From: a virus
Taxonomy: Duplodnaviria > Heunggongvirae > Uroviricota > Caudoviricetes
Virus record (IMG/VR): IMGVR_UViG_2531839265_000001
Coordinates: 1 to 25,289 of that record
Direction: 5' to 3' (one strand)
Length of the DNA stretch: 25,289 bases
A model generated the notes under the pieces. That model was not told where the DNA came from and ran no database searches. It saw only the letters and a program-made list of their open reading frames with translations. This document shows, piece after piece, positions 10,584 to 24,940 of the stretch; positions within the stretch are counted from its first letter, which is position 1, and every line of letters begins with the position of its first letter. The position numbers were made by a program, and so were the translations under genes.

Positions 10584-11234
10584 TTACCACCGTCTTTTCT
10601 TGTGGCGGGATTTGTTGCTGGTGGGCGTGAGGTGGTAGCGCAATATTTTTGTGCGCTGCTTCAGTATACTGGTGGCTGTCTGCTCTCCCGGTATGATGTC
10701 GCTTTCACGGTACACAGAGCGGATTTTTTCCGCACGTAACCCCAGAGAACGACGCAATACTGTCTCAGGTAATGCGTCCACCACCTGATTGCAGACTGCC
10801 CACCAGGATAATTCAGCCAGCGATAATTCCCGCTCCTGCGCACCGCTTATTGCGTAGCGGATGACGTCAATCATCCATGCTGACAGGTTTTGATGAGCAA
10901 GTTGCTCGAGTGATTCGGATGTCTGGTCACGCAGCTGGTTGTCGCAGTGCCAGCACAACACCATCGCTCCGGTACCATAACGATGTATGACGATTTCACT
11001 GTGATGGTAGTCACTATGAGGCCACTGGCAGGATTTAACATGACGCAGGAGCCAGTCAGACAGTGCACCAGTGCCACCGGCAGCACGAATTACCCGCTCA
11101 TTGCTGAAAAATGGCAGCAATGATTTGTCTTCCGCCAGCGGCTGGCGAATGGCAGGAACAACTCCGGACGGCAGACCGCGCATGCTTTTCGGTTCCGGCT
11201 CCACCAGTACTCGAGGGTTATGAAATACCTGCAT
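10584..11234 (-). CDS. hypothetical nin-region protein (about 216 aa from MQVFHNPRV...)
   Basis: Track ORF 10584..11432; the first about 66 codons are low-complexity, so a start near 11234 is more plausible. May be the C-terminal part of a larger gene with 11308..11586. Confidence 0.35.
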   Translation of the reverse strand: MQVFHNPRVLVEPEPKSMRGLPSGVVPAIRQPLAEDKSLLPFFSNERVIRAAGGTGALSDWLLRHVKSCQWPHSDYHHSEIVIHRYGTGAMVLCWHCDNQLRDQTSESLEQLAHQNLSAWMIDVIRYAISGAQERELSLAELSWWAVCNQVVDALPETVLRRSLGLRAEKIRSVYRESDIIPGEQTATSILKQRTKILRYHLTPTSNKSRHKKRRW

Positions 11235-12142: not shown

Positions 12143-12628
12143 TTAGTTTTGCTGTTCTATTTTAAGCTTGATAGTTTCATACAGAACAATAGTTGCGCCT
12201 GTTTTACATAATTCCCGGCTGTCATATGCACGAGACCAATAACACAACCAGTTCTCGAGATCTTCTCGAGTATAGGTTTTGCAGGCCAGTCCCTCTGCCA
12301 TTTCCACGATTTCATCGCCTGGTGCTGTTAACTCATAGCCATTCAACAACAAGAAGACGTAACCAGCCATCATAGCTGTTCGTTTGTTCGCATTAGCAAA
12401 CGGATGATTCTGAATCAGACTTTCAATCAATACCGATGCCAGTACAAACATGTCATTAGTCTGTTCATACCATCGAACCATGCTGGGACGGGCCTGAGAA
12501 GAACTTAAATTATCAACACTCAGCACACCTACAGGTTCATCTGGTGTTTGAAGCTCAATTAAAAGGCGATTGATTTCAGTAAGATCATCAACCGAAAGAT
12601 AGTGCACTCCTTCAACAATCTCAGCCAT
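12143..12628 (-). CDS. Doc/Fic-family toxin (death-on-curing type)
   Basis: Contains HPFANANKRTAMMAG, the Doc-type H-x-F-x-(D/N)-(A/G)-N-K-R motif. ATG at 12628 (track start 12637 is a TTG). Confidence 0.8.
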   Translation of the reverse strand: MAEIVEGVHYLSVDDLTEINRLLIELQTPDEPVGVLSVDNLSSSQARPSMVRWYEQTNDMFVLASVLIESLIQNHPFANANKRTAMMAGYVFLLLNGYELTAPGDEIVEMAEGLACKTYTREDLENWLCYWSRAYDSRELCKTGATIVLYETIKLKIEQQN

Positions 12629-12646
12629 AGAGCACAATACCCATTA

Positions 12647-12826
12647 TTACACTTTTGAAAGTTCTTCCATTGCCTTCTCGTAACGAGAAAAACCGAAATC
12701 GAAAGCATTTTTCACCTGCTCACGATGTGTGCAATTTTCATCAATAGCCGGGCGCGGAGCTGCCACAACGCTTTTATCGCGAGGGGGAATAGTCAATCGC
12801 GGGTGTTTTTTTAGTGCGTAGCTCAT
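12647..12826 (-). CDS. putative antitoxin partner of the Doc-family toxin (59 aa)
   Basis: ATG at 12826, stop 17 nt before the toxin start: MSYALKKHPRLTIPPRDKSVVAAPRPAIDENCTHREQVKNAFDFGFSRYEKAMEELSKV. Not recognisably Phd/YefM from sequence; below the ORF-track cut-off. Confidence 0.45.
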   Translation of the reverse strand: MSYALKKHPRLTIPPRDKSVVAAPRPAIDENCTHREQVKNAFDFGFSRYEKAMEELSKV

Positions 12827-13037
12827 TGGGTGTACCCTTACTTCTCCGTCCTGTTCTTTAACAAAAAATCAAGTCAATACAAAATTAGTCAGGCTAATGT
12901 TGTTAGCATAGCCTAATACCAATCGTATTCACAACCACAGTACGTGAAAAAATCCGCCAAAGCGGGTTAAGTGCGGGTGCGTTGAGGATGCCGACACATC
13001 AGAGGTGGCGGGAGATTACTCTCCCGCCTGGTCACTC

Positions 13038-13193
13038 TTACTTCTCAGATTCGTAGTCCACGAAGACAGCAACCTCCGTCTGGCCGGTTCGGATTCGTAC
13101 CTCGCAGAGGTCTTTCCTCGTTACCAGTGCCGTCACTATGACGGTTAAACAGATGACGATCAGGGCGATTAACATCGCCTTTTGCTGCTTCAT
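13038..13193 (-). CDS. hok: Hok/Gef-family type I toxin (51 aa)
   Basis: MKQQKAMLIALIVICLTVIVTALVTRKDLCEVRIRTGQTEVAVFVDYESEK has the Hok TM segment and CE.R motif. AGGAG RBS before the ATG at 13193. A 9-bp perfect hairpin at 13002-13023 follows the stop. Confidence 0.9.
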   Translation of the reverse strand: MKQQKAMLIALIVICLTVIVTALVTRKDLCEVRIRTGQTEVAVFVDYESEK

Positions 13194-13530
13194 AGCCTGC
13201 TTCTCCTTGCCTTTCGACACGTAAGAGGCTAACCTACATTTGTGAGACGTAGATTGGGCCTCAGATTAATGTTAAGCGTCCTGCAAGACGCGTAATGTTA
13301 ACTGGGGCTTTTCTCTGTTTGCCTTACAGTGGCATGCCCGAGGCAGACAGCCTCAAGCACCCGCAGCAATCTTACCGACACCGATAAGAAAACGCTATTT
13401 TTATTGCCAGCACCATCTATCCAGGCTAATTTATCTGCGTCAGAACGGCGCAATGCGCTCGCCTGAGATACGTTTACTTGCCATGGTAACAACAGATAAC
13501 GGCAATTGTTGTTTCTGTTTTGTTTCCTTC

Positions 13531-17102: not shown

Positions 17103-18136
17103 CGCGCCAATCTGTGCAATCCAGAGCTTCGAAGGTGCGGCCCCGTTCTTCTGGGTCCAGCGGTTCGAATAAACCTCCCCCATGAGTTCCCACAGCTTCC
17201 ACGCCGTTTCCGTCGCTGATAAATCCGTTTTCACGTTCCCACTGCTCACGTGCTGCCCGAATTTCCTGAACTGCCCGTGATGCGGTGCCACCTGGTGCTG
17301 CTGCATGGTTTACTCCCTTGCTGACTGGTTTAACCTGCGCCCTGACGTGATTTACGTGACGGGCGAATTTCTGCTCCCACTGAATCTGTGTAAACACTTT
17401 GCCCTCATCACTCCAGTAATCCCGGAATGCGGCAAGTTCAGCAGGTGTAAATTCTGGTTCCGGCAAAGCCATCCCCCACAACGCAGCCCGCCGTCGAAAA
17501 TCCGGCGACGGATACCAGTCATCGGTCATCGGAAATTTTCCGATGGGCTCTCTCAGGCCATCCAGGAATACAGGGGACGCCGCCTGTAACGACAAAACCT
17601 CCCGCTCACTGGTCGGAGCACTCTCGCGTGCGTTATGTGTGGGGTTTAGATCTTTGGGTTCCTTTGGGTTCCGTGATCCGTTTTTGGGTGTCTTTAATGG
17701 AAAATTTGGATCTCTTTGGTTGTTTTTCATGCAGCAAAGAGTTCCGTTTTTGGGGCTGTTTTGTGCTGAAACATAACCATTTTCGGTACTGTTTTTATTA
17801 ACAGCACCAATTTTACCCACCTTTAAAGACTCCCATTTTTTGGGTGTATTCAGGCTCGGCAACACTTTCTTCTACGCCGATAAGTCGGTACACCACAATT
17901 TGCTTTGTTCTGCCTTTTCTCTCACCGGTATCAACAATTAACCCAATCTCCATCAGGTGTCGTAAGCTGTCCTGCACAGTCTTTTTGTTCAGTTCCGTTA
18001 CTTCTGCCAGTGCAGATACAGACGGGTATGCACACAAATCGGCACCGCACATATCAGCAAGCCAGGTCAATACTGACTTACTGGATGAACTGCCGGTTTT
18101 CACCTTTTTAGCCCATCGTAGTGCATCGATACTCAT
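17095..18136 (-). CDS. replication initiator: N-terminal HTH domain and C-terminal DnaT-like domain, apparently split at a T6/A6 run (17836-17841)
   Basis: Track ORF 17813..18211 has an HTH domain (MSIDALRWAKKVKTGSSSSKSVLTWLADMCGADLCAYPSVSALAEVTELNKKTVQDSL). ORF 17095..17865 has a Pro/Lys/Asn-rich linker and IGKFPMTDDWYPSPDFRRRAALWGMALPEPEFTPAELAAFRDYWSDEGKVFTQIQWEQKFARHV, matching the E. coli DnaT C-terminal domain. Removing one A from the run fuses the frames; two separate genes cannot be excluded. Confidence 0.5.
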
Positions 18137-18659
18137 ACGAACCCCAGACAGATATTTGTTTATCTGCAAAGTAATGTTGGTATTGCTGACGATACGCGTG
18201 CTTGAAAGCAATAGCTTTTTCTATAAGCTCGTCAGTCTCACGTTCCACAACAGCTGGATCCGCAAAAAGCAGCCCGGACTCCACCACATCGCCATATTCT
18301 TTGTTTAACCCGGCGATCATGTACGTAATGCTTTTTCCGTCAGTAATTTCACAATACAACCTGAAATCGCTGATCCGGATAGCCTCCATAATTGCCGGAA
18401 TCAGCGCCGTGAATTTTTCCCGCTTATCCCTGGTGTCGATAGCTTTCCAGCGTTCAAATATTTTCACCCGGTTAACGCCCAGTGCCCGTTGATCAACCGC
18501 GCCATCATCAAACGTGACGCGTTGAACATCAATGTTCGGGCGTTCTTTCAGAGCCCAGAATGCTTCCGTGATTAATATCGTCGCCTGCTCCTGTGTCATT
18601 CCTAGTCGGCATACCCAGGTATCCAGAGCCTCACAAACCTGTTCAGGGGTGATTTTCAT
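18108..18659 (-). CDS. hypothetical protein (183 aa) at the cII position downstream of dicC
   Basis: Track ORF; ATG at 18659 overlaps the last codons of dicC. Confidence 0.45.
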   Translation of the reverse strand: MKITPEQVCEALDTWVCRLGMTQEQATILITEAFWALKERPNIDVQRVTFDDGAVDQRALGVNRVKIFERWKAIDTRDKREKFTALIPAIMEAIRISDFRLYCEITDGKSITYMIAGLNKEYGDVVESGLLFADPAVVERETDELIEKAIAFKHAYRQQYQHYFADKQISVWGSYEYRCTTMG

Positions 18660-18873
18660 TGTTCAACCGCCCCGCCCGCTTTGCCTTACGATATTCGTCA
18701 TAAACTTTTGGGTCGTACTGAAGTTCCCCGCCGGATGCCTCTTGCAGGCGCATCGCGCGACCTTCAGGAACTAGATCCCCTTTCCAGCTATAAAGCGAAG
18801 CCAAACGAATACCAGCAGCTTGTGCAAGTTTTGTTTTTGAACCGAAATACAAAAGCGCGTCAGTTTTAAGCAT
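18643..18873 (-). CDS. dicC: Cro-like repressor DicC
   Basis: MLKTDALLYFGSKTKLAQAAGIRLASLYSWKGDLVPEGRAMRLQEASGGELQYDPKVYDEYRK... matches remembered E. coli DicC; divergent from dicA. Confidence 0.8.
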   Translation of the reverse strand: MLKTDALLYFGSKTKLAQAAGIRLASLYSWKGDLVPEGRAMRLQEASGGELQYDPKVYDEYRKAKRAGRLNNENHP

Positions 18874-18883
18874 TTAAAGCACC

Positions 18884-18934
18884 TTGCCTGTTAGTCATGA
18901 CTAACAAAATAGATGTTAACAAAAACATAGTCAA
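18884..18934 (-). promoter_or_regulatory. dicC promoter with operator: -35 TTGACT (18934-18929), -10 TATTTT (18911-18906), 16-bp perfect palindrome GTTAGTCATGACTAAC (18890-18905)
   Basis: 17-nt spacing; the palindrome sits between the -10 and the dicC start. Its left half is also overlapped by a plus-strand TTGCCT at 18884-18889. Confidence 0.55.
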
Positions 18935-18956
18935 TAAGATTTAGCATTAGCTAACT

Positions 18957-19363
18957 ATGGATACAAAAATTTAACCATTGGCGAACGCATTAGATATCGC
19001 CGAAAAAACCTCAAATACACCCAAAGGTCTCTTGCTAAAGCCTTGAAAATTTCTCATGTGTCGGTTTCACAATGGGAACGGGATGATAGCGAACCTACAG
19101 GGAAGAATCTTTTTGCACTTAGCAATGTACTGCAGTGCTCGCCAACATGGATTCTATTTGGCGATGAAGACAAGCAACCATCACCACCTATTGAGGATCC
19201 AGTTACTTTATCCCCCAAAGAACACGAGCTCCTTGAACTTTTTAATGCATTGCCTGAATCAGAACAGGACGCTCAGCTCACCGAGATGCGCGCCCGAGTA
19301 AAAAATTTCAACAAACTCTTTGAAGAATTATTAAAAGCCCGTCAACGAACAAACAAAAGATAA
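18957..19363 (+). CDS. dicA: CI-like repressor DicA (HTH_XRE), N-terminus broken by a 1-nt frameshift in an A5 run at 18965-18969
   Basis: Track ORF 19043..19363 plus in-frame upstream text ...NLTIGERIRYRRKNLKYTQRSLAKALKISHVSVSQWERDDSEPTGKNLFALSNVLQCSPTWILFGDED... matches DicA. ATG at 18957 reads MDTKI-stop as given; one extra A gives MDTKNLTIGER.... Confidence 0.8.
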
Positions 19364-19423
19364 CACAATCAATGTGTTATCTTTTTTGTTGCTAAAAATG
19401 TTAGCCATAACAAACAAAAACAC

Positions 19424-19452
19424 TTGACCACGCTGTTAGTCATGACTAATCT
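19424..19452 (+). promoter_or_regulatory. early-left promoter with second operator copy: -35 TTGACC (19424-19429), palindrome GTTAGTCATGACTAAT (19435-19450), -10 TAATCT (19447-19452)
   Basis: Operator lies within the 17-nt spacer, the classic arrangement for repressor occlusion. Drives ydfA, ydfB, dicF and dicB. Confidence 0.55.
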
Positions 19453-19529
19453 TATTTACATCAAGACACCGCACGGTGTTCTCAGCAAACAGTTCCGCTC
19501 CCCCGGCGTTAAGGGGAAATGAGGTCAAC

Positions 19530-19682
19530 ATGGATACTATCGATCTTGGCAACAACGAATCTCTGGTGTACGGCGTGTTTCCCAACCAGGACGGCACATT
19601 CACCGCGATGACGTATACCAAAAGCAAAACGTTTAAAACCGAATCTGGCGCGCGTCGCTGGTTAGCCAGAAACACTGACTGA
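19530..19682 (+). CDS. ydfA: YdfA-like small protein (50 aa)
   Basis: GAGGT RBS then ATG: MDTIDLGNNESLVYGVFPNQDGTFTAMTYTKSKTFKTESGARRWLARNTD. Confidence 0.55.
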   Translation: MDTIDLGNNESLVYGVFPNQDGTFTAMTYTKSKTFKTESGARRWLARNTD

Positions 19683-19693
19683 TGAGGTTGGCG

Positions 19694-19900
19694 ATGGAAT
19701 TTAAAGATTTACCTCCAGACACTCAGAAAATCGCCGCAGAAACACTGAAATCTCTCATTTTGGACGGGGGGACAGAAAAGGTAGAGCCAGCTAAAAAAAA
19801 CTGGCTCAAGAAATCAGAGAAGCCTTTATTGCTCTTTATCAGTCTTCTCCATAGCGGCTTGTTTTTCTTCTTTCAATATATTGCGAATTGTAATAACTGA
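19694..19900 (+). CDS. ydfB: YdfB-like small protein; ORF extends to 68 aa, the 3' third overlapping a convergent minus-strand gene
   Basis: GAGG RBS then MEFKDLPPDTQKIAAETLKSLILDGGTEKVEPAKKNWLKKSEKP.... Confidence 0.45.
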   Translation: MEFKDLPPDTQKIAAETLKSLILDGGTEKVEPAKKNWLKKSEKPLLLFISLLHSGLFFFFQYIANCNN

Positions 19901-20011
19901 ATTGGCCGCCTCTGAAGGGGATGACATTTTGCCAGCCCGAATTAACTCAACTGTTAAGTTCAAAGCTGCAACAGATGGATAGGTAAATGGGTTAATTAAC
20001 TTGTCTGACAT
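19826..20011 (-). CDS. small protein (61 aa) with strong RBS, convergent with and overlapping the ydfB-like ORF (possibly YdfC-like)
   Basis: GGAGGA RBS, then MSDKLINPFTYPSVAALNLTVELIRAGKMSSPSEAANSVITIRNILKEEKQAAMEKTDKEQ. ATG at 20011 chosen over the track GTG at 20083. Confidence 0.5.
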   Translation of the reverse strand: MSDKLINPFTYPSVAALNLTVELIRAGKMSSPSEAANSVITIRNILKEEKQAAMEKTDKEQ

Positions 20012-20334
20012 TTTATCCTCCATTGAGGTTACTGGTTGAGAATGGAGACCACACGTGACAGCGTGTTGTCGTGCGCCGGACACGGATAAGAATCCGGCAC
20101 TGACAGTTTACTGAAAGGATATATCCCTGAAAAGTCAGGGCATAACGCGAAAGCGCACGGCGGAGGTGTCTTTTCCTTAGAAGGCTTGTCGTTAGATTTC
20201 TTCGATTGTGCGCTTCCGGTTGTGGCACTCCGCGAAATGGCGCGGCGGTAAGTATGGCGGGGTTATTCCTTCCCCGTTGAGGACACCGGGTTGTCAGGTT
20301 GACCATACGCTTAAGTGACACCCCCGCTGCAACA

Positions 20335-20400
20335 ACCCATGTTGATTACCTTTTGGCGGGTATCCGTTTTTGTTTTCCCTTGTGATACCCGCCCTTTTTA
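20335..20400 (+). ncRNA. dicF: DicF-like small RNA (terminator hairpin 20355-20393 plus T-run)
   Basis: Sits between ydfB/C and dicB as in Qin. TTGGCGGGTATC...GATACCCGCCCTTTTT parallels the remembered K-12 DicF 3' end, and the flanking AAAGTGAATTTTGTGATG text matches the K-12 dicF-dicB spacer as I recall it. 5' end unknown. Confidence 0.4.
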
Positions 20401-20582
20401 AAGTGAATTTTGTGATGCGGTGAATGCGGCTCAGCGCACGCGGAACAGTTAAAAAGGCCAGTTGGCTTCCGTATTGGTTCTTATGGGTGGGTTCTCTGTA
20501 TCCGGCGTTAATTGTTAACTGGTTAACGTCACCTGGAGGCACCAGGCACCGTATCACAAAATTCATTGTTGAGGACGCGATA

Positions 20583-20765
20583 ATGGAAACGTTATTACCA
20601 AACGTTAATACGTCTGAAGGTTGTTTTGAAATTGGTGTCAGAATCAGTAACCCTGTATTTACTGAAGATGCCATTAATAAGAGAAAACACGAACGGGAGC
20701 TATTAAATCAAATATGCATTGTTTCAATGCTGGCCCGTTTACGCCTGATGCAAAAAGGACGCTGA
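20583..20765 (+). CDS. dicB: cell-division inhibitor DicB
   Basis: GAGGA RBS then METLLPNVNTSEGCFEIGVRISNPVFTEDAINKRKHERELLNQICIVSMLARLRLMQKGR, nearly identical to remembered E. coli DicB. Confidence 0.85.
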   Translation: METLLPNVNTSEGCFEIGVRISNPVFTEDAINKRKHERELLNQICIVSMLARLRLMQKGR

Positions 20766-20767
20766 CA

Positions 20768-20971
20768 ATGAATACAGCATTTGCTCTCGTTCTGACAGTT
20801 TTTCTTAATACAGGCGAGCCAGTCGATCTTGTTATTGGTATACATGACTCAATGAAAGAATGCATGGCTGCCGCAGCGGAACAGAAAATTCCTGGCAACT
20901 GTTATCCGGTTGATAAAGTTATTCGCATGGACAATAACGAAATCCCGGCAGGACTTAAAACAGCACCGTAA
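20768..20971 (+). CDS. ydfD: YdfD-like small secreted protein (DUF1482-like)
   Basis: MNTAFALVLTVFLNTGEPVDLVIGIHDSMKECMAAAAEQKIPGNCYPVDKVIRMDNNEIPAGL with an N-terminal hydrophobic segment. Confidence 0.65.
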   Translation: MNTAFALVLTVFLNTGEPVDLVIGIHDSMKECMAAAAEQKIPGNCYPVDKVIRMDNNEIPAGLKTAP

Positions 20972-21051
20972 TTAATATCCGGTTTCATTTTTATATGCCA
21001 GCAATGGCAGGGATTTGTTCACCCTTAAATCTGTAATGAGGTTAAAACAAA

Positions 21052-23523
21052 ATGAGTAAAGTCTTTATTTGCGCCGCCATTCCGGACGAACAGGCAATAA
21101 AGGAAGAAGGGGCAGTCGCTGTAGCCACTGCCATTGAAGCCGGTGACGAACGTCGCGCCCGTGCCAAATTTACCTGGCAATTCCTGGAGCAATATCCGGC
21201 TGCTCAGGACTGCGCTTATAAATTTCTTGTCTGCGAGGATAAACCCGGCATGCCCCGCCCTGCCATCGACTCCTGGGATACCGAATATATGCTGGAAAAC
21301 CGCTGGGATGAGGAAGGCGCTTCCTTTGTCCCGGTCGAACCAGAATCCGATCCGATGAACGTCAATTTTGACAAGCTGTCCCTTGAAGTACAGAACGCGG
21401 TCCTGGTTAAGTTCGGTACATGTGAAAACATCACCGTTGATATGGTGATTAGTGCACAGGAATTGTTGCAGGAGGACATGGCAACATTCGACGGGCATAT
21501 CGTTGAGGCATTGATGAAAATGCCTGAAGTTAACGTCATGTATTCAGAACTAAAGCTGCTCGCCATCGGGTGGGTTAAACATAAATGTAAGCCGGGTGCA
21601 AAATGGCCTGAGATCCAGACAGAATTACGCACCTGGAAAAAACGTCGCGAAGCCGAACGCAAGGAAACCGGGAAATACACGTCTGTTGTTGATCTTGCCC
21701 GCGCCAGAGTCAACCGACAGCACACTGAAAACTCAGCAGGAAAAATCAACCCCGCCACTGCCGCCATTCGTCGCGAATACAAGCAGACATGGAAAACGCT
21801 GGATGAAGAACTGGCCTACGCTCTGTGGCCTGGCGATATTAATGCCGGAAACATTGACGGCAGCATCCATCGCTGGGCAAAAAATGAAGTTATCGACAAA
21901 GATCGCGAAGACTGGAAGCGCATTTCCGCATCAATGCGCAAACACCCCGATGCCGTTCGCTACGACCGTCAGACTATTTTTGGCCTTGTCCGTGAGCGTC
22001 CGATCGACATTCACAAAGATCCCGTGGCACTGAACAAATACATCACTGAATACCTGGCGACAAAGGGCGTGTTTGAAGATGAAGGAACAAATCAGAGCGC
22101 AACTGATACTCTCTCGTCGCCAGTACCAGAAACTGATGCAGTGGAAACGGCAATTCCGGACAACGAAAAAATCGAATGCAAAGTGGAAGTCGAACCATCT
22201 GTAGAGCGTGAGGGGCCGTTCTACTTCCTCTTCACAGATAAGGATGGCGAAAAATATGGTCGTGCAAACAAACTTTCTGGTCTGGATAAGGCGCTGGCTG
22301 CCGGGGCTACTGAAATCACGAAAGAAGAATATTTCGCCCGCAAAAACGGTACATACTCAGGTTCACAACAAAATACTGGTGCATCTGACACGACCGCACA
22401 ACCAGAGCCGGTAAAAGTTACCACTGACGAAGTAAACAAAATTATGCAGGCAGCCAATATCAGCCAGCCTGACGCCGATGTACTGCTTGCAGTATCACGT
22501 GGTGAATTTGTTGTAGGGGTTAGCGATCCGAATGATCCGAAATGGGTGAAGGGGATTAAAACCCGCGATTCTGTGAACCAGAACCAGCAAGAAACAGAAC
22601 AGAACGACCAGAAAGCGGAACAAAACAGCTCAAATGCGTTACAAAACGAGCCAGAAACGAAACAGCCTGAACCAGAAGAGCAACAAGAACCGGAAAAAGT
22701 CTGTACCACCTGCGGTCAGACCGGCAGCGGTAACTGCCCTGATTGCGGCACTGTGATGGGCGACGCAACATACCAGGAAACATTCGATGAAGAGAATCAG
22801 GTTGAAGTTCAGGAAAATGATCCGGAGGAAATGGAAGGCGCTGAACATCCACACAAGGAGAACCCTGGCGGCAATCAGCATCACGCCAGCGATAATAAAA
22901 CTGGCGAGGCGACAGATCCCTTAATTAAGGTGAATGGTCATCATAAGCTCACATCCACCAGCAGAGCGGGGATTCATCTGATGATCGACCTTGAAACCAT
23001 GGGAAAAAATCCCGATGCCCCGATTATCTCAATAGGCGCAATATTTTTCGATCCACAAACCGGAGATATGGGACCGGAATTTAGCAAGACCATCGATCTG
23101 GATACTGCTGGCGGAGTCATTGATCGTGACGTCATTAAATGGTGGCTGAAGCAATCACGTGAAGCGCAGTCTGCCATTATGACCGATGAAATCCCGTTAG
23201 ATGATGCACTACTGCAATTGCGGGAATTTATCGACGAAAACTCCGGTGAATTTTTTGTTCAGGTCTGGGGTAATGGGGCCAACTTCGACAACGTGGTTTT
23301 ACGCCGTTCATACGAACGACAGGGTATCCCCTGCCCGTGGCGCTACTGCAACGATCGCGATGTACGCACAATCGTTGAGCTGGGGAAAGCCATAGACTTC
23401 GATGCCAGAACGGCTATTCCATTCGAAGGTGAGCGCCATAATGCACTTGATGACGCTCGTTACCAGGCAAAATACGTTTCAGCTATCTGGCAAAAACTGA
23501 TCCCGAGTCAGGCTGATTTTTAA
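21052..23523 (+). CDS. large YdfE-like protein (823 aa) with C-terminal DexA-type DEDDh 3'-5' exonuclease domain
   Basis: GAGGTT RBS. C-terminal about 180 aa carry DEDDh motifs IDLETMG, WGNGANFD and HNALDDARY and resemble T4 DexA. Upstream are a CTTCGQTGSGNCPDCG zinc-ribbon-like motif and a Q/E/N-rich acidic linker. N-terminus MSKVFICAAIPDEQAIKEEG... matches the truncated YdfE of K-12 as I recall it. Confidence 0.7.
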   Translation: MSKVFICAAIPDEQAIKEEGAVAVATAIEAGDERRARAKFTWQFLEQYPAAQDCAYKFLVCEDKPGMPRPAIDSWDTEYMLENRWDEEGASFVPVEPESDPMNVNFDKLSLEVQNAVLVKFGTCENITVDMVISAQELLQEDMATFDGHIVEALMKMPEVNVMYSELKLLAIGWVKHKCKPGAKWPEIQTELRTWKKRREAERKETGKYTSVVDLARARVNRQHTENSAGKINPATAAIRREYKQTWKTLDEELAYALWPGDINAGNIDGSIHRWAKNEVIDKDREDWKRISASMRKHPDAVRYDRQTIFGLVRERPIDIHKDPVALNKYITEYLATKGVFEDEGTNQSATDTLSSPVPETDAVETAIPDNEKIECKVEVEPSVEREGPFYFLFTDKDGEKYGRANKLSGLDKALAAGATEITKEEYFARKNGTYSGSQQNTGASDTTAQPEPVKVTTDEVNKIMQAANISQPDADVLLAVSRGEFVVGVSDPNDPKWVKGIKTRDSVNQNQQETEQNDQKAEQNSSNALQNEPETKQPEPEEQQEPEKVCTTCGQTGSGNCPDCGTVMGDATYQETFDEENQVEVQENDPEEMEGAEHPHKENPGGNQHHASDNKTGEATDPLIKVNGHHKLTSTSRAGIHLMIDLETMGKNPDAPIISIGAIFFDPQTGDMGPEFSKTIDLDTAGGVIDRDVIKWWLKQSREAQSAIMTDEIPLDDALLQLREFIDENSGEFFVQVWGNGANFDNVVLRRSYERQGIPCPWRYCNDRDVRTIVELGKAIDFDARTAIPFEGERHNALDDARYQAKYVSAIWQKLIPSQADF

Positions 23524-23584: not shown

Positions 23585-24940
23585 ATGAGCGAACAGTACC
23601 TGATAACGCTCGATGAGTGGAAGCCAAAACGGTTCAGTCTCCCAATAACAAACACTACCCTGGTGAAATACGGAAAACTAGGATACATCGTTCCAAGACC
23701 ACAAAAAATTCGTGGGCGTTGGCTGATAGATCGCCGAGCAGTATTTGTTGGACCTGGTGAAACAGGAATTGCGCCGGAAATTCATACTGGCGATGATGAT
23801 GCACTGAAGGAGATTTTAACTCATGTCACCGAGGCCACGAAAAACAGCACTGACGTAGCCGGACTTTACGAAAAATTTGATCGCAGAACTGGCAGAGTTT
23901 ACTACCAGTATAAAAACCCTGTGACTGGAAAATTTCACGGGCTCGGAACAGACAAAGGTAAGGCAGAAAAAATCGCTTCCACAGCCAATCAGCGAATAGC
24001 TGCAGCAGAGGCTGAATATTTCATGCGCAAAATTGATGAAAGTCCGTCAGCAACAAAGCGTCGGGGTATCAGATTAAAGGCATGGGTTGATCGATATCTG
24101 AAAATACAGGACACGCGACTGAAAAATGGAGATATTGCAGCTACAACTCACAAAGAAAAAGCCAGAATGGCTGCATACCTGGTTTCCCGTCTGGGAAACC
24201 ACCCATTGAAAGAACTGGAAGTAAGAGACTTTGCATTAATACTGGATGAGTGGCTGGATAAAGACATGGTCAGCACAGCGAGAGTAAATCGTGGATTATG
24301 GGTTGATATTTATAAAGAAGCACAGCATGCAGGGGAAGTTCCTCCTGGATGGAATCCTCCGGAGGCTACCCGTAAACCGATCCCTAAAGTAACTAGAGCC
24401 AGGCTCACCCTGGAAGACTGGCAAAAAATTTACAACGCAACGCCTGAAAAACACTTTATCCGTAACGCAATGCTTCTTGCGATTGTTACTGGTCAGCGCC
24501 GTGATGACATTTGCCACATGCGTTTTTCAGATGTGTGGAACGAACACTTGCATATCACCCAGGGAAAAACCGGAATGCGTCTGGCGTTACCGCTTACACT
24601 ACGCTGTGATGCCATTGGGATAACGTTAAAAGAAGTTATTGATGGGTGCCGAGACAGAATATTAAGTCCATATCTAATCCATAGTCGGCACCAGAAACAA
24701 CCAAAGCCGATGAGTAAAGACAACCTGAGCGACTACTTTGCCAAAGCACGGGATCTGGCTGGGATAACTCCACCAGCAGGAAAAACTCCGCCAACATTTC
24801 ATGAACAACGCTCCCTGTCAGAACGACTGTACCGCGCGCAGGGTATTGATACAAAAACATTACTGGGACATAAAGTCCAGGCAACCACCGATCGTTATAA
24901 CGATACTCGTGGTCAGGAATGGGTTAAATTGGTTGTTTGA
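23585..24940 (+). CDS. excisionase-like segment fused in frame to a lambda-family tyrosine integrase; the fusion is probably caused by a missing base in the A5 run at 23840-23844
   Basis: N-terminal about 85 aa (MSEQYLITLDEWKPKRFSLPITNTTLVKYGKLGYIVPRPQKIRGRWLIDRRAVFVG) are Xis-like. The rest aligns to lambda Int (YEKFDRRTGRVYYQYKNPVTGKFHGLG ... HEQRSLSERLY ... LGHK...DRY.DTRG.EW). An out-of-frame ATG at 23823 reads MSPRPRKTALT-stop; with one extra A it becomes MSPRPRKNSTDVAGLYEKFDRR..., a typical Arg-rich Int N-terminus overlapping the xis end. Confidence 0.75.
   Translation: MSEQYLITLDEWKPKRFSLPITNTTLVKYGKLGYIVPRPQKIRGRWLIDRRAVFVGPGETGIAPEIHTGDDDALKEILTHVTEATKNSTDVAGLYEKFDRRTGRVYYQYKNPVTGKFHGLGTDKGKAEKIASTANQRIAAAEAEYFMRKIDESPSATKRRGIRLKAWVDRYLKIQDTRLKNGDIAATTHKEKARMAAYLVSRLGNHPLKELEVRDFALILDEWLDKDMVSTARVNRGLWVDIYKEAQHAGEVPPGWNPPEATRKPIPKVTRARLTLEDWQKIYNATPEKHFIRNAMLLAIVTGQRRDDICHMRFSDVWNEHLHITQGKTGMRLALPLTLRCDAIGITLKEVIDGCRDRILSPYLIHSRHQKQPKPMSKDNLSDYFAKARDLAGITPPAGKTPPTFHEQRSLSERLYRAQGIDTKTLLGHKVQATTDRYNDTRGQEWVKLVV

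What the first reader, a model, noticed from the sequence alone, without database searches (positions are those of the whole stretch)
18880..19455. Immunity switch with one 16-bp palindromic operator on each side of dicA
GTTAGTCATGACTAAC (18890-18905) lies at the dicC promoter and GTTAGTCATGACTAAT (19435-19450) lies inside the spacer of the early-left promoter. A single operator per promoter, rather than a lambda-style triple operator, fits the DicA/DicC system. As given, dicA is frameshifted at its fifth codon, so whether the lysogen expresses functional repressor depends on the homopolymer question.
Basis: seen in the sequence. Interest (0 to 1): 0.4.

Follow-up and report, generated by a model that had tools for sequence, protein, structure and literature searches.

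The report
Qin-type DicA/DicC prophage immunity switch

Summary
GTTAGTCATGACTAAC (18890-18905) and GTTAGTCATGACTAAT (19435-19450) lie where stated and are far beyond chance. They flank a dicA gene that diverges from dicC, in a lambdoid prophage running from terminase to integrase.

The first site equals the published operator Oc of E. coli K-12 Qin. It abuts the -10 of the dicC promoter and covers its start site. The second lies in the spacer and -10 of dicBp (TTGACC-17-TAATCT), upstream of ydfA...dicB. This switch is already known.

"One operator per promoter" is only partly right. Each promoter region holds a second conserved site: Oa (18941-18954, abutting the dicA ATG) and Ob2 (19400-19415). 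The 2+2 layout recurs in relatives whose operators have a different sequence.

The dicA frameshift (A5, against A6 in 85 of 85 related loci and every listed best match among 848 E. coli genomes) is one of at least six ±1 changes in A/T runs that break otherwise intact phage genes. A sequencing artefact is the likeliest cause.

In passing: the four central operator positions (YYATRR) toggle by transitions about 50-fold faster than third-codon positions. This is unexplained.

The parts
18108..18659 (-). ydaT-family gene downstream of dicC (cII position)
   Evidence: Pfam YdaT_toxin 26 bits. 95.6% identical to the annotated YdaT-family protein of L003.
18643..18873 (-). dicC (Cro-like repressor, 76 aa)
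   Evidence: NCBIfam NF007282 DicC 159 bits (cut-off 130); Pfam P22_Cro. 97% identical to K-12 DicC.
18890..18905 (.). Operator Oc, GTTAGTCATGACTAAC, perfect palindrome
   Evidence: Equals the core of K-12 Oc, TTGTTAGTCATAACTAACAA, which DicA binds in vivo (PMC3441716). Arms are invariant in 82 loci.
18906..18934 (-). dicC promoter: -35 TTGACT (18934-18929), 17-bp spacer, -10 TATTTT (18911-18906). Inferred start about 18899, inside Oc.
   Evidence: Promoter scan. PMC3441716 maps the K-12 dicC 5' end with the -11 A in this hexamer. The start coordinate in the window is my inference.
18941..18954 (.). Oa-like site TTAGCATTAGCTAA, 2 nt upstream of the dicA ATG and 50 bp centre-to-centre from Oc
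   Evidence: Nearly invariant, centre included, in 82 loci. A TTAG-N6-CTAA site occupies the same place in Citrobacter, Serratia, PPompW and Klebsiella-phage relatives.
18957..19363 (+). dicA (CI/C2-like repressor, 135 aa when one A is restored); frameshifted as given
   Evidence: A5 at 18965-69 against A6 in relatives. The repaired product hits NF007257 DicA at 235 bits and Pfam HTH_3.
19355..19385 (+). Intrinsic terminator of dicA (13-bp stem plus T run)
   Evidence: Terminator scan.
19400..19415 (.). Ob2, GTTAGCCATAACAAAC: left arm canonical, right arm degenerate; 8 bp upstream of the dicBp -35 and 35 bp centre-to-centre from Ob1
   Evidence: 3 mismatches. Left arm is near-invariant (1 variant) in 82 loci, and the centre shows the same YYATRR variation as Oc and Ob1. 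A positional equivalent exists in all four diverged relatives.
19424..19452 (+). dicBp (early-left-type promoter): -35 TTGACC 19424-29, 17-bp spacer, -10 TAATCT 19447-52
   Evidence: Read from the sequence. Some relatives have TAATAT at the -10. The consensus scan did not call it because the -10 matches only 3 of 6. dicBp is repressed 22-fold by DicA in K-12 (PMC10448788).
19435..19450 (.). Operator Ob1, GTTAGTCATGACTAAT, spanning the spacer and the first 4 nt of the -10 of dicBp
   Evidence: Arms are conserved in 82 loci.
19459..19529 (+). Conserved leader of the ydfA-dicB operon
   Evidence: Near-invariant in 82 loci. GTTCCGC...GCG.TA..GG is kept in relatives with 53-74% DicA identity.
19530..19682 (+). 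ydfA-like gene (DUF1391), first gene of the operon controlled by Ob1
   Evidence: Pfam DUF1391 100 bits.
20583..20765 (+). dicB (cell-division inhibitor), intact; the toxic cargo that DicA keeps silent
   Evidence: Pfam DicB 127 bits; NCBIfam NF049927 126 bits.

Best explanation
The region 18.6-19.7 kb is the immunity switch of a Qin/P22-like lambdoid prophage. dicC (Cro analogue) and dicA (CI/C2 analogue) are transcribed divergently. dicA ends in a terminator, and a separate promoter, dicBp, then reads ydfA, a dicF-like segment and dicB.

DicA, a 135-aa HTH protein whose N-terminal domain is P22-C2-like, binds as a symmetric dimer to GTTAG-N6-CTAAC sites. [quoted passage not shown] Bound at Ob1 (19435-19450), inside the spacer and -10 of dicBp, it excludes RNA polymerase and silences the toxic dicB operon. 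DicC recognises the same TTAG...CTAA motif on both sides of dicA and represses dicA, which makes the switch bistable.

Shown in the literature for K-12: DicA binds Oc; DicA represses dicC and dicBp; DicC ChIP peaks lie on both sides of dicA. Inferred here: Ob1 is the DicA/DicC site at dicBp, and Oa (18941-54) and Ob2 (19400-15) are auxiliary sites. Oa is possibly the site through which DicC shuts off dicA.

The dicA frameshift is most likely a homopolymer sequencing error, so the real prophage probably makes functional repressor.
For: Gene identity: (DicA, DicC and DicB models above their cut-offs). Synteny matches K-12 Qin and TUM9757.

Operators are non-random and confined to the switch. The window's Oc matches the published 20-nt K-12 Oc at 18 of 20 positions, both differences falling at variable positions (PMC3441716). 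Oc abuts TATTTT of a TTGACT-17-TATTTT promoter.

Arms are invariant in 82 related loci. Operator arms and centre change together with the HTH sequences of DicA and DicC in PPompW- and Klebsiella-type relatives, while the site positions are kept.

Literature: DicA represses dicBp 22-fold and the switch is bistable through DicC (PMC10448788). [quoted passage not shown]

Frameshift as artefact: A6 in 85 of 85 related loci. Among 848 E. coli genomes the listed best matches all show 99.3% identity, i.e. the single gap, so none of the listed hits reproduces A5. Five other ±1 changes in A/T runs split terS, a holin, DUF968 and the O-like replication protein, and fuse xis to int, while the encoded proteins stay 91-99% identical to intact homologues. 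dicB is intact, so a true dicA null should be toxic (PMC10448788).
Against: No binding or transcript data exist for this locus. The DicA site at dicBp has never been mapped experimentally; the Reg-Seq paper states 'binding location is unknown' (PMC7567609). An in vivo assay reported that DicA binds neither Om nor Oa (PMC3441716, data not shown there), so a role for Oa with DicA is unsupported. The dicBp -10 is weak and the consensus scan did not call it. The Ob1-Ob2 spacing of 35-36 bp is not an integral number of helical turns, which argues against simple lambda-like cooperativity. The artefact reading of the frameshift is circumstantial, because no reads are available.
Confidence: 0.88

Rival explanations
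1. Strict single-operator switch. Only Oc and Ob1 are functional. Oa and Ob2 are non-functional look-alikes, conserved for other reasons such as the dicA translation-initiation region or an UP-element-like sequence.
For: [quoted passage not shown] Ob2's right arm is degenerate (CAAAC or CATAC). ChIP resolution cannot separate sites 35-50 bp apart (PMC11430063).
Against: Oa keeps TTAG-N6-CTAA in relatives down to 53% DicA identity even though its other bases change. Ob2's left arm is near-invariant (1 variant). Its centre follows the same YYATRR rule and the same rapid transition toggling as Oc and Ob1, which is hard to explain unless the same protein reads it. Ob2 switches to the CTTAG type together with Oc and Ob1 in PPompW and Klebsiella relatives.
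Confidence: 0.25
2. dicA is truly inactivated in this strain (a real A6-to-A5 deletion). Repression of dicC and dicBp is then supplied in trans by a second DicA-type prophage or by host YjdC, or else the operon is derepressed.
For: The sequence as given has A5 and a stop at codon 6. E. coli genomes carry up to 7 places matching this switch, so trans immunity is possible. YjdC is reported to regulate DicA targets when DicA is absent (cited in PMC11430063).
Against: None of the listed best matches among 848 genomes, and 0 of 85 related loci, carries A5. The same kind of lesion hits at least five other unrelated phage genes, only in A/T runs, with no nonsense codons, IS elements or larger deletions in them. 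dicB is intact.
Confidence: 0.1
3. The palindromes are not protein operators but RNA or DNA hairpins (attenuators or terminators), or chance repeats.
For: They are perfect or near-perfect inverted repeats that could form short hairpins.
Against: The chance expectation is 0.08. No T-run follows them. The central positions vary freely without keeping pairing symmetry. K-12 Oc has genetic evidence for DicA binding, since a single A-to-C change in an arm abolishes it (PMC3441716).
Confidence: 0.02

Closest known systems
dicA-dicC-dicB immunity region of the E. coli K-12 cryptic prophage Qin (Kim)
   Same: Same genes in the same order (ydaT/ydfX side, dicC, dicA, ydfA, dicF region, dicB). DicA is 92% and DicC 97% identical. 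Same Oc, Oa, Ob2 and Ob1 sites, same promoters and same dicA terminator.
   Different: Here the switch sits in an apparently complete lambdoid prophage running from terminase to integrase, with int in the position that lies next to potC in the closest relative L003. The operator centres differ: Oc is TCATGA here and TCATAA in K-12. ydfB/ydfC and dicF are diverged. dicA carries the A5 frameshift.
immC region of Salmonella phage P22 (c2 repressor, cro, OR/OL)
   Same: The DicA N-terminal HTH domain is 57% identical to P22 C2 residues 8-70, and DicC hits Pfam P22_Cro. The repressor and cro genes are divergent. The operators are symmetric, with contacted outer bases and a central segment that in P22 is not contacted and sets affinity (PMC4267663).
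   Different: P22 has three tandem operators at each of OR and OL and a RecA-cleavable C2 with an S24 domain. DicA has 135 aa, no S24 domain and no Ala-Gly site, and is relieved by the antirepressor Rem (PMC10448788). The site layout here is 2+2 with spacings of 50 and 35 bp.
Lambda CI/Cro switch (OR1-3, OL1-3)
   Same: Same logic: the repressor blocks the rightward (cro-like) and leftward early promoters and activates its own promoter; Cro-like DicC represses the repressor gene; the switch is bistable (PMC3441716, PMC10448788).
   Different: No tripartite tandem operators. Different operator sequence and different repressor C-terminal domain. Not SOS-inducible.
PPompW-type and Klebsiella phage ST405-OXA48phi1.2 DicA-like immunity regions
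   Same: Same architecture and the same conserved ydfA-type leader. DicA identity is 65% and 54%.
   Different: Operators are CTTAG-N6-CTAAG with an A/T-rich asymmetric centre. Their centres are not hypervariable.

Membership tests
DicA repressor family (NCBIfam NF007257) | Full-length match to the DicA model above its curated cut-off | tested here: met
   235 bits against a cut-off of 101, residues 4-135, using the reading frame restored by one A.
DicA repressor family (NCBIfam NF007257) | Intact open reading frame of about 135 aa | tested here: not met
   As given, A5 at 18965-69 leads to a stop at codon 6. The longest downstream ORF (19043-19363) lacks helices 1-2 of the HTH. Judged a probable sequencing artefact.
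DicA repressor family (NCBIfam NF007257) | Cro/C1-type HTH N-terminal domain and no LexA/S24 autocleavage domain | tested here: met
   Pfam HTH_3 59 bits at residues 12-66 and no Peptidase_S24 hit. The absence of the Ala-Gly site is described for K-12 DicA in PMC10448788.
DicC (Cro-like) family (NCBIfam NF007282) | Match above cut-off, and position divergent from dicA | tested here: met
   159 bits against a cut-off of 130; Pfam P22_Cro 44 bits. The gene is on the minus strand, 83 bp from the dicA ATG.
Qin-type immunity switch | Operator Oc (inverted repeat TTGTTAGTCATAACTAACAA in K-12) adjoining the -10 of the dicC promoter | tested here: met
   CTGTTAGTCATGACTAACAA at 18888-18907 matches 18 of 20 positions. 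The TATTTT -10 at 18911-18906 abuts it (PMC3441716).
Qin-type immunity switch | A DicA-repressed promoter (dicBp) downstream of dicA that reads ydfA...dicB | tested here: met
   TTGACC-17-TAATCT at 19424-19452, then ydfA (DUF1391) and dicB. The region aligns base for base with K-12.
Qin-type immunity switch | DicA and DicC physically bind the palindromes and repress the two promoters | not testable with these tools
   Known only for K-12: Oc binding in vivo (PMC3441716), dicBp repression (PMC10448788) and DicC ChIP-seq (PMC11430063).
Lambda/P22-style tripartite operator | Three tandem repressor sites, separated by a few bp, overlapping each early promoter | tested here: not met
   Only two motif-conforming sites occur per region, 50 and 35 bp apart centre to centre. 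The sequence between Oc and Oa has no TTAG-N6-CTAA match.

The most novel reading that the evidence does not exclude
The four central positions (6, 7, 10, 11) of the three GTTAG-YYAT RR-CTAAC operators may act as a fast-evolving 'affinity rheostat'. They flip only by transitions (G:C to A:T and back) and change about 50 times faster than third-codon positions among near-identical prophages, while the arms and the central AT never change. This would mean either a site-specific mutational hotspot in these palindromes or recurrent selection that retunes how tightly the toxic dicB operon and dicC are repressed. I found no report of this for DicA-type switches.
Probability: 0.3. Interest if true: 0.55.

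Novelty: already known. Interest (0 to 1): 0.2.

Why it matters
For annotation, the locus can be labelled confidently as a DicA/DicC immunity region with named operators and promoters. The dicA 'pseudogene' should not be taken at face value.

For biology, the comparative evidence gives a testable refinement of a switch whose dicBp operator has never been mapped: a 2+2 site layout, with Oa forming a separate class from Oc, Ob1 and Ob2.

The rapid, transition-only turnover of the operator centres, if confirmed in larger data, would be a natural experiment on how non-contacted operator bases tune a prophage repressor that guards a toxic cell-division inhibitor.

Tried and rejected
- The genome-contig scan with DicA returned only 5 loci, so the viral contigs sets were used for statistics instead.
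- Rfam at gathering and at E<=1 found no DicF or any leader family in 19300-21200. The dicF-homologous stretch is recognisable only by alignment to K-12.
- The consensus promoter scan found PdicC but not dicBp. dicBp was placed by eye and from its conservation.
- RNAalifold on the ydfA leader gave only a 4-bp invariant hairpin with no covariation, so no RNA structure is claimed.
- Test of whether operator-centre hypervariability is general to the family: it is absent from 72 PPompW-type loci, so it is specific to the YYATRR operators.
- Hairpin-loop cytosine deamination as the sole cause is rejected. Changes go in both directions (T to C and A to G as well), and adjacent flanks vary to all four bases.
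- Quasi-palindrome correction as the sole cause is rejected, because about two thirds of centres are imperfect palindromes.
- Mosaic recombination as the sole cause is unlikely. Of 9 locus pairs that differ at exactly one of 873 columns, 4 differ at a centre position.
- My one search used wrong third-codon coordinates for dicA; this was corrected.
- The alignment of the 12850-12922 block to the switch is too AT-rich and ambiguous to claim homology.

Full report
**Observation.** GTTAGTCATGACTAAC (18890-18905) is a perfect palindrome, 18 bp long with its flanking T and A. GTTAGTCATGACTAAT (19435-19450) differs only in its last base. Allowing three mismatches, the motif occurs three times in the 25.3-kb window against 0.08 expected, and 0 of 100 shuffles reached three. 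The third copy, GTTAGCCATAACAAAC at 19400-19415, lies 35 bp upstream of the second and was not reported. The arms-only pattern TTAG-N6-CTAA occurs four times against 0.26 expected: the two reported sites, TTAGCATTAGCTAA at 18941-18954 two bases before the dicA ATG, and one at 12903-12916.

**What the genes are.** The minus-strand ORF 18643-18873 is DicC (NCBIfam NF007282, 159 bits; Pfam P22_Cro). The plus-strand gene starting at 18957 is DicA once one A is restored (NF007257, 235 bits; HTH_3; no S24 domain). Downstream lie a DUF1391 ydfA homologue (19530-19682) and an intact dicB (20583-20765). The 1.1-kb switch is 97.3% identical to E. coli TUM9757 and about 89% identical to K-12 Qin, with the same gene order. 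The whole window is a lambdoid prophage from terminase to integrase; in the closest relative L003 the integrase gene lies next to potC.

**Where the sites sit.** On the minus strand a TTGACT-17-TATTTT promoter (18934-18906) ends exactly at the palindrome. For K-12, Yun et al. mapped the dicC 5' end so that the -11 A lies in this hexamer, and they described Oc as overlapping the -10 (PMC3441716). Transferred to the window, that puts the start near 18899, inside the operator; this coordinate is my inference. Downstream of dicA a 13-bp-stem terminator (19355-19385) is followed by TTGACC (19424-29), a 17-bp spacer and TAATCT (19447-52). The second palindrome fills the 3' part of the spacer and the first four bases of the -10. 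Some relatives have TAATAT there, a better -10.

**More than one site per promoter.** In 82 related loci (DicA 92-99% identical) the arms of Oc, Ob1 and the left arm of Ob2 are essentially invariant, and the Oa site is invariant including its centre. Citrobacter and Serratia relatives (74% and 65% DicA identity) keep all four sites. In phage PPompW (65%) and Klebsiella phage ST405-OXA48phi1.2 (53%) the operators have changed to CTTAG-N6-CTAAG with an A/T-rich centre, together with changes in HTH helices 2-3 of DicA and in DicC. Even so, there is again one site at the dicC promoter, one TTAG-N6-CTAA site abutting the dicA start, one site in the dicBp spacer, and one with a degenerate right arm about 36 bp upstream. 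The conserved layout is thus 2+2, neither 1+1 nor lambda's 3+3. Oa behaves as a separate class: its outer base is T or A rather than G or C, and its centre is fixed. It may be the site through which DicC shuts off dicA; this is inference only.

**Literature.**
- Oc (TTGTTAGTCATAACTAACAA) binds DicA in vivo. A single arm mutation abolishes binding. DicA at Oc represses dicC and activates dicA. Om and Oa, which had been proposed from sequence alone, were not bound by DicA (PMC3441716).
- dicBp is repressed 22-fold by DicA, relieved by the antirepressor Rem, and bistable through DicC (PMC10448788).
- Reg-Seq recovered the DicA site at dicC but notes that the DicA site for dicB is low-evidence with unknown location (PMC7567609).

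The finding therefore restates a known system. The exact dicBp operator is a long-standing prediction that has not been mapped experimentally.

**The frameshift.** The window has five A at 18965-69 and relatives have six. This holds for 85 of 85 related loci. Among 848 E. coli genomes that match 18906-19040, all listed best matches are at 99.3% identity, which is that single gap, so none of the listed hits reproduces A5. Comparison with intact homologues shows the same type of lesion elsewhere:
- T4 against T5 at 1701 (terS);
- A6 against A7 at 4409 (holin);
- T5 against T6 at 10645 (DUF968);
- T6 against T5 at 17835 (O-like replication protein);
- A5 against A6 at 23840, which fuses xis to int.

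The affected proteins are otherwise 91-99% identical to their homologues and carry no other damage. Because dicB is intact, a real dicA null should be toxic; dicA deletions in K-12 are made in a ΔdicBF background (PMC10448788). A homopolymer sequencing artefact is the most economical reading. A true pseudogene with immunity supplied in trans cannot be excluded without reads.

**Noticed in passing: fast-evolving operator centres.** In Oc, Ob2 and Ob1 the positions 6, 7, 10 and 11 are each biallelic, C/T or A/G only, giving YYATRR. Transversions do not occur in 82 loci, nor in the Citrobacter and Serratia sites.
- On a tree built from the dicC and dicA coding sequence these 12 positions need 3-10 changes each (mean 6.9). 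The 96 four-fold sites need a mean of 0.52 (maximum 2), and the arms 0.1.
- Without any tree, Oc, Ob2 and Ob1 show 9, 11 and 9 four-site haplotypes. At most 5 are possible without recurrent change.
- Pairs of loci with identical coding sequence still differ at 8.9% of centre positions. Pairs with 1-3 coding differences differ at 26% of centre positions against 0.46% of third-codon positions.
- Of nine locus pairs that differ at a single column out of 873, four differ at a centre position.
- The 4 bp just 5' of Oc and of Ob1 also turn over fast, to all four bases.
- PPompW-type operators do not show the effect.

In P22, whose C2 N-terminal domain is 57% identical to that of DicA, the central operator bases are not contacted and set affinity through minor-groove properties that depend on G:C against A:T (PMC4267663). 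That fits a tuning role. I could not determine why the rate is so high.

**Verdict.** The 'single operator' claim is an undercount of conserved sites, and the frameshift is probably not biological.

**Limits.** There are no binding, transcript or read data for this locus. The comparative set is dominated by E. coli prophages. The rate comparison uses simple parsimony and pairwise counts, not a recombination-aware model.

Noticed in passing
window 18895-18900, 19405-19410, 19440-19445 (and loci L001-L091): Central positions 6, 7, 10 and 11 of the three GTTAG-YYATRR-CTAAC operators toggle by transitions only. They diverge about 50-fold faster than third-codon positions among near-identical prophages, while the arms and the central AT are invariant. 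The effect is absent from PPompW-type operators. The mechanism is unexplained.
   Followed up: yes
window 18885-18888 and 19430-19433: The four bases immediately 5' of Oc (between Oc and the dicC Shine-Dalgarno) and of Ob1 (between the -35 and Ob1) are also hypervariable, using all four bases. The neighbouring 52 bp up to the dicA ATG are almost invariant.
   Followed up: partly
window 1701, 4409, 10645, 17835, 23840 (also 1816, 4862, 16629, 21043): ±1 length differences in A/T homopolymers relative to close relatives split terS, a holin, DUF968 and the O-like replication gene, and fuse xis to int. The pattern is typical of homopolymer miscalls across the whole window.
   Followed up: partly
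window 12886-12916: Two operator-like palindromes, ATTAGTCAGGCTAAT (N5 spacing) and GTTAGCATAGCCTAAT (same arms as Ob1), lie next to an AGTCAA -35-like block. They are upstream on the minus strand of a 59-aa ORF plus a Fic/Doc toxin gene (12143-12826). They could be the toxin-antitoxin module's own operator or an extra DicA/DicC target. Similarity to the switch is ambiguous.
   Followed up: partly
window ~20350-20400: The segment that aligns with K-12 dicF is diverged, with several indels. Rfam does not recognise it even at E<=1, so whether a functional DicF sRNA is made is open.
   Followed up: partly
window 19459-19529; L006, L007, L089, L090: The leader between dicBp and ydfA is highly conserved (GTTCCGC...GCG.TA..GG) even in relatives with 53-74% DicA identity, and more so than the repressor gene itself. 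This suggests a functional RNA or DNA element, possibly nut-like. RNAalifold found only a small invariant hairpin.
   Followed up: partly
window 13038-13362 and 5613-5919: A hok/sok module (Rfam sok, 112 bits) and three tRNA genes lie in the late-region side of the prophage.
   Followed up: no
L004 (JAIIUG010000151.1): A 2.5-kb contig binned as a Collinsella sp. MAG carries a Qin-type dicC-dicA switch with 93% DicA identity. This is most likely a mis-binned E. coli prophage fragment.
   Followed up: no
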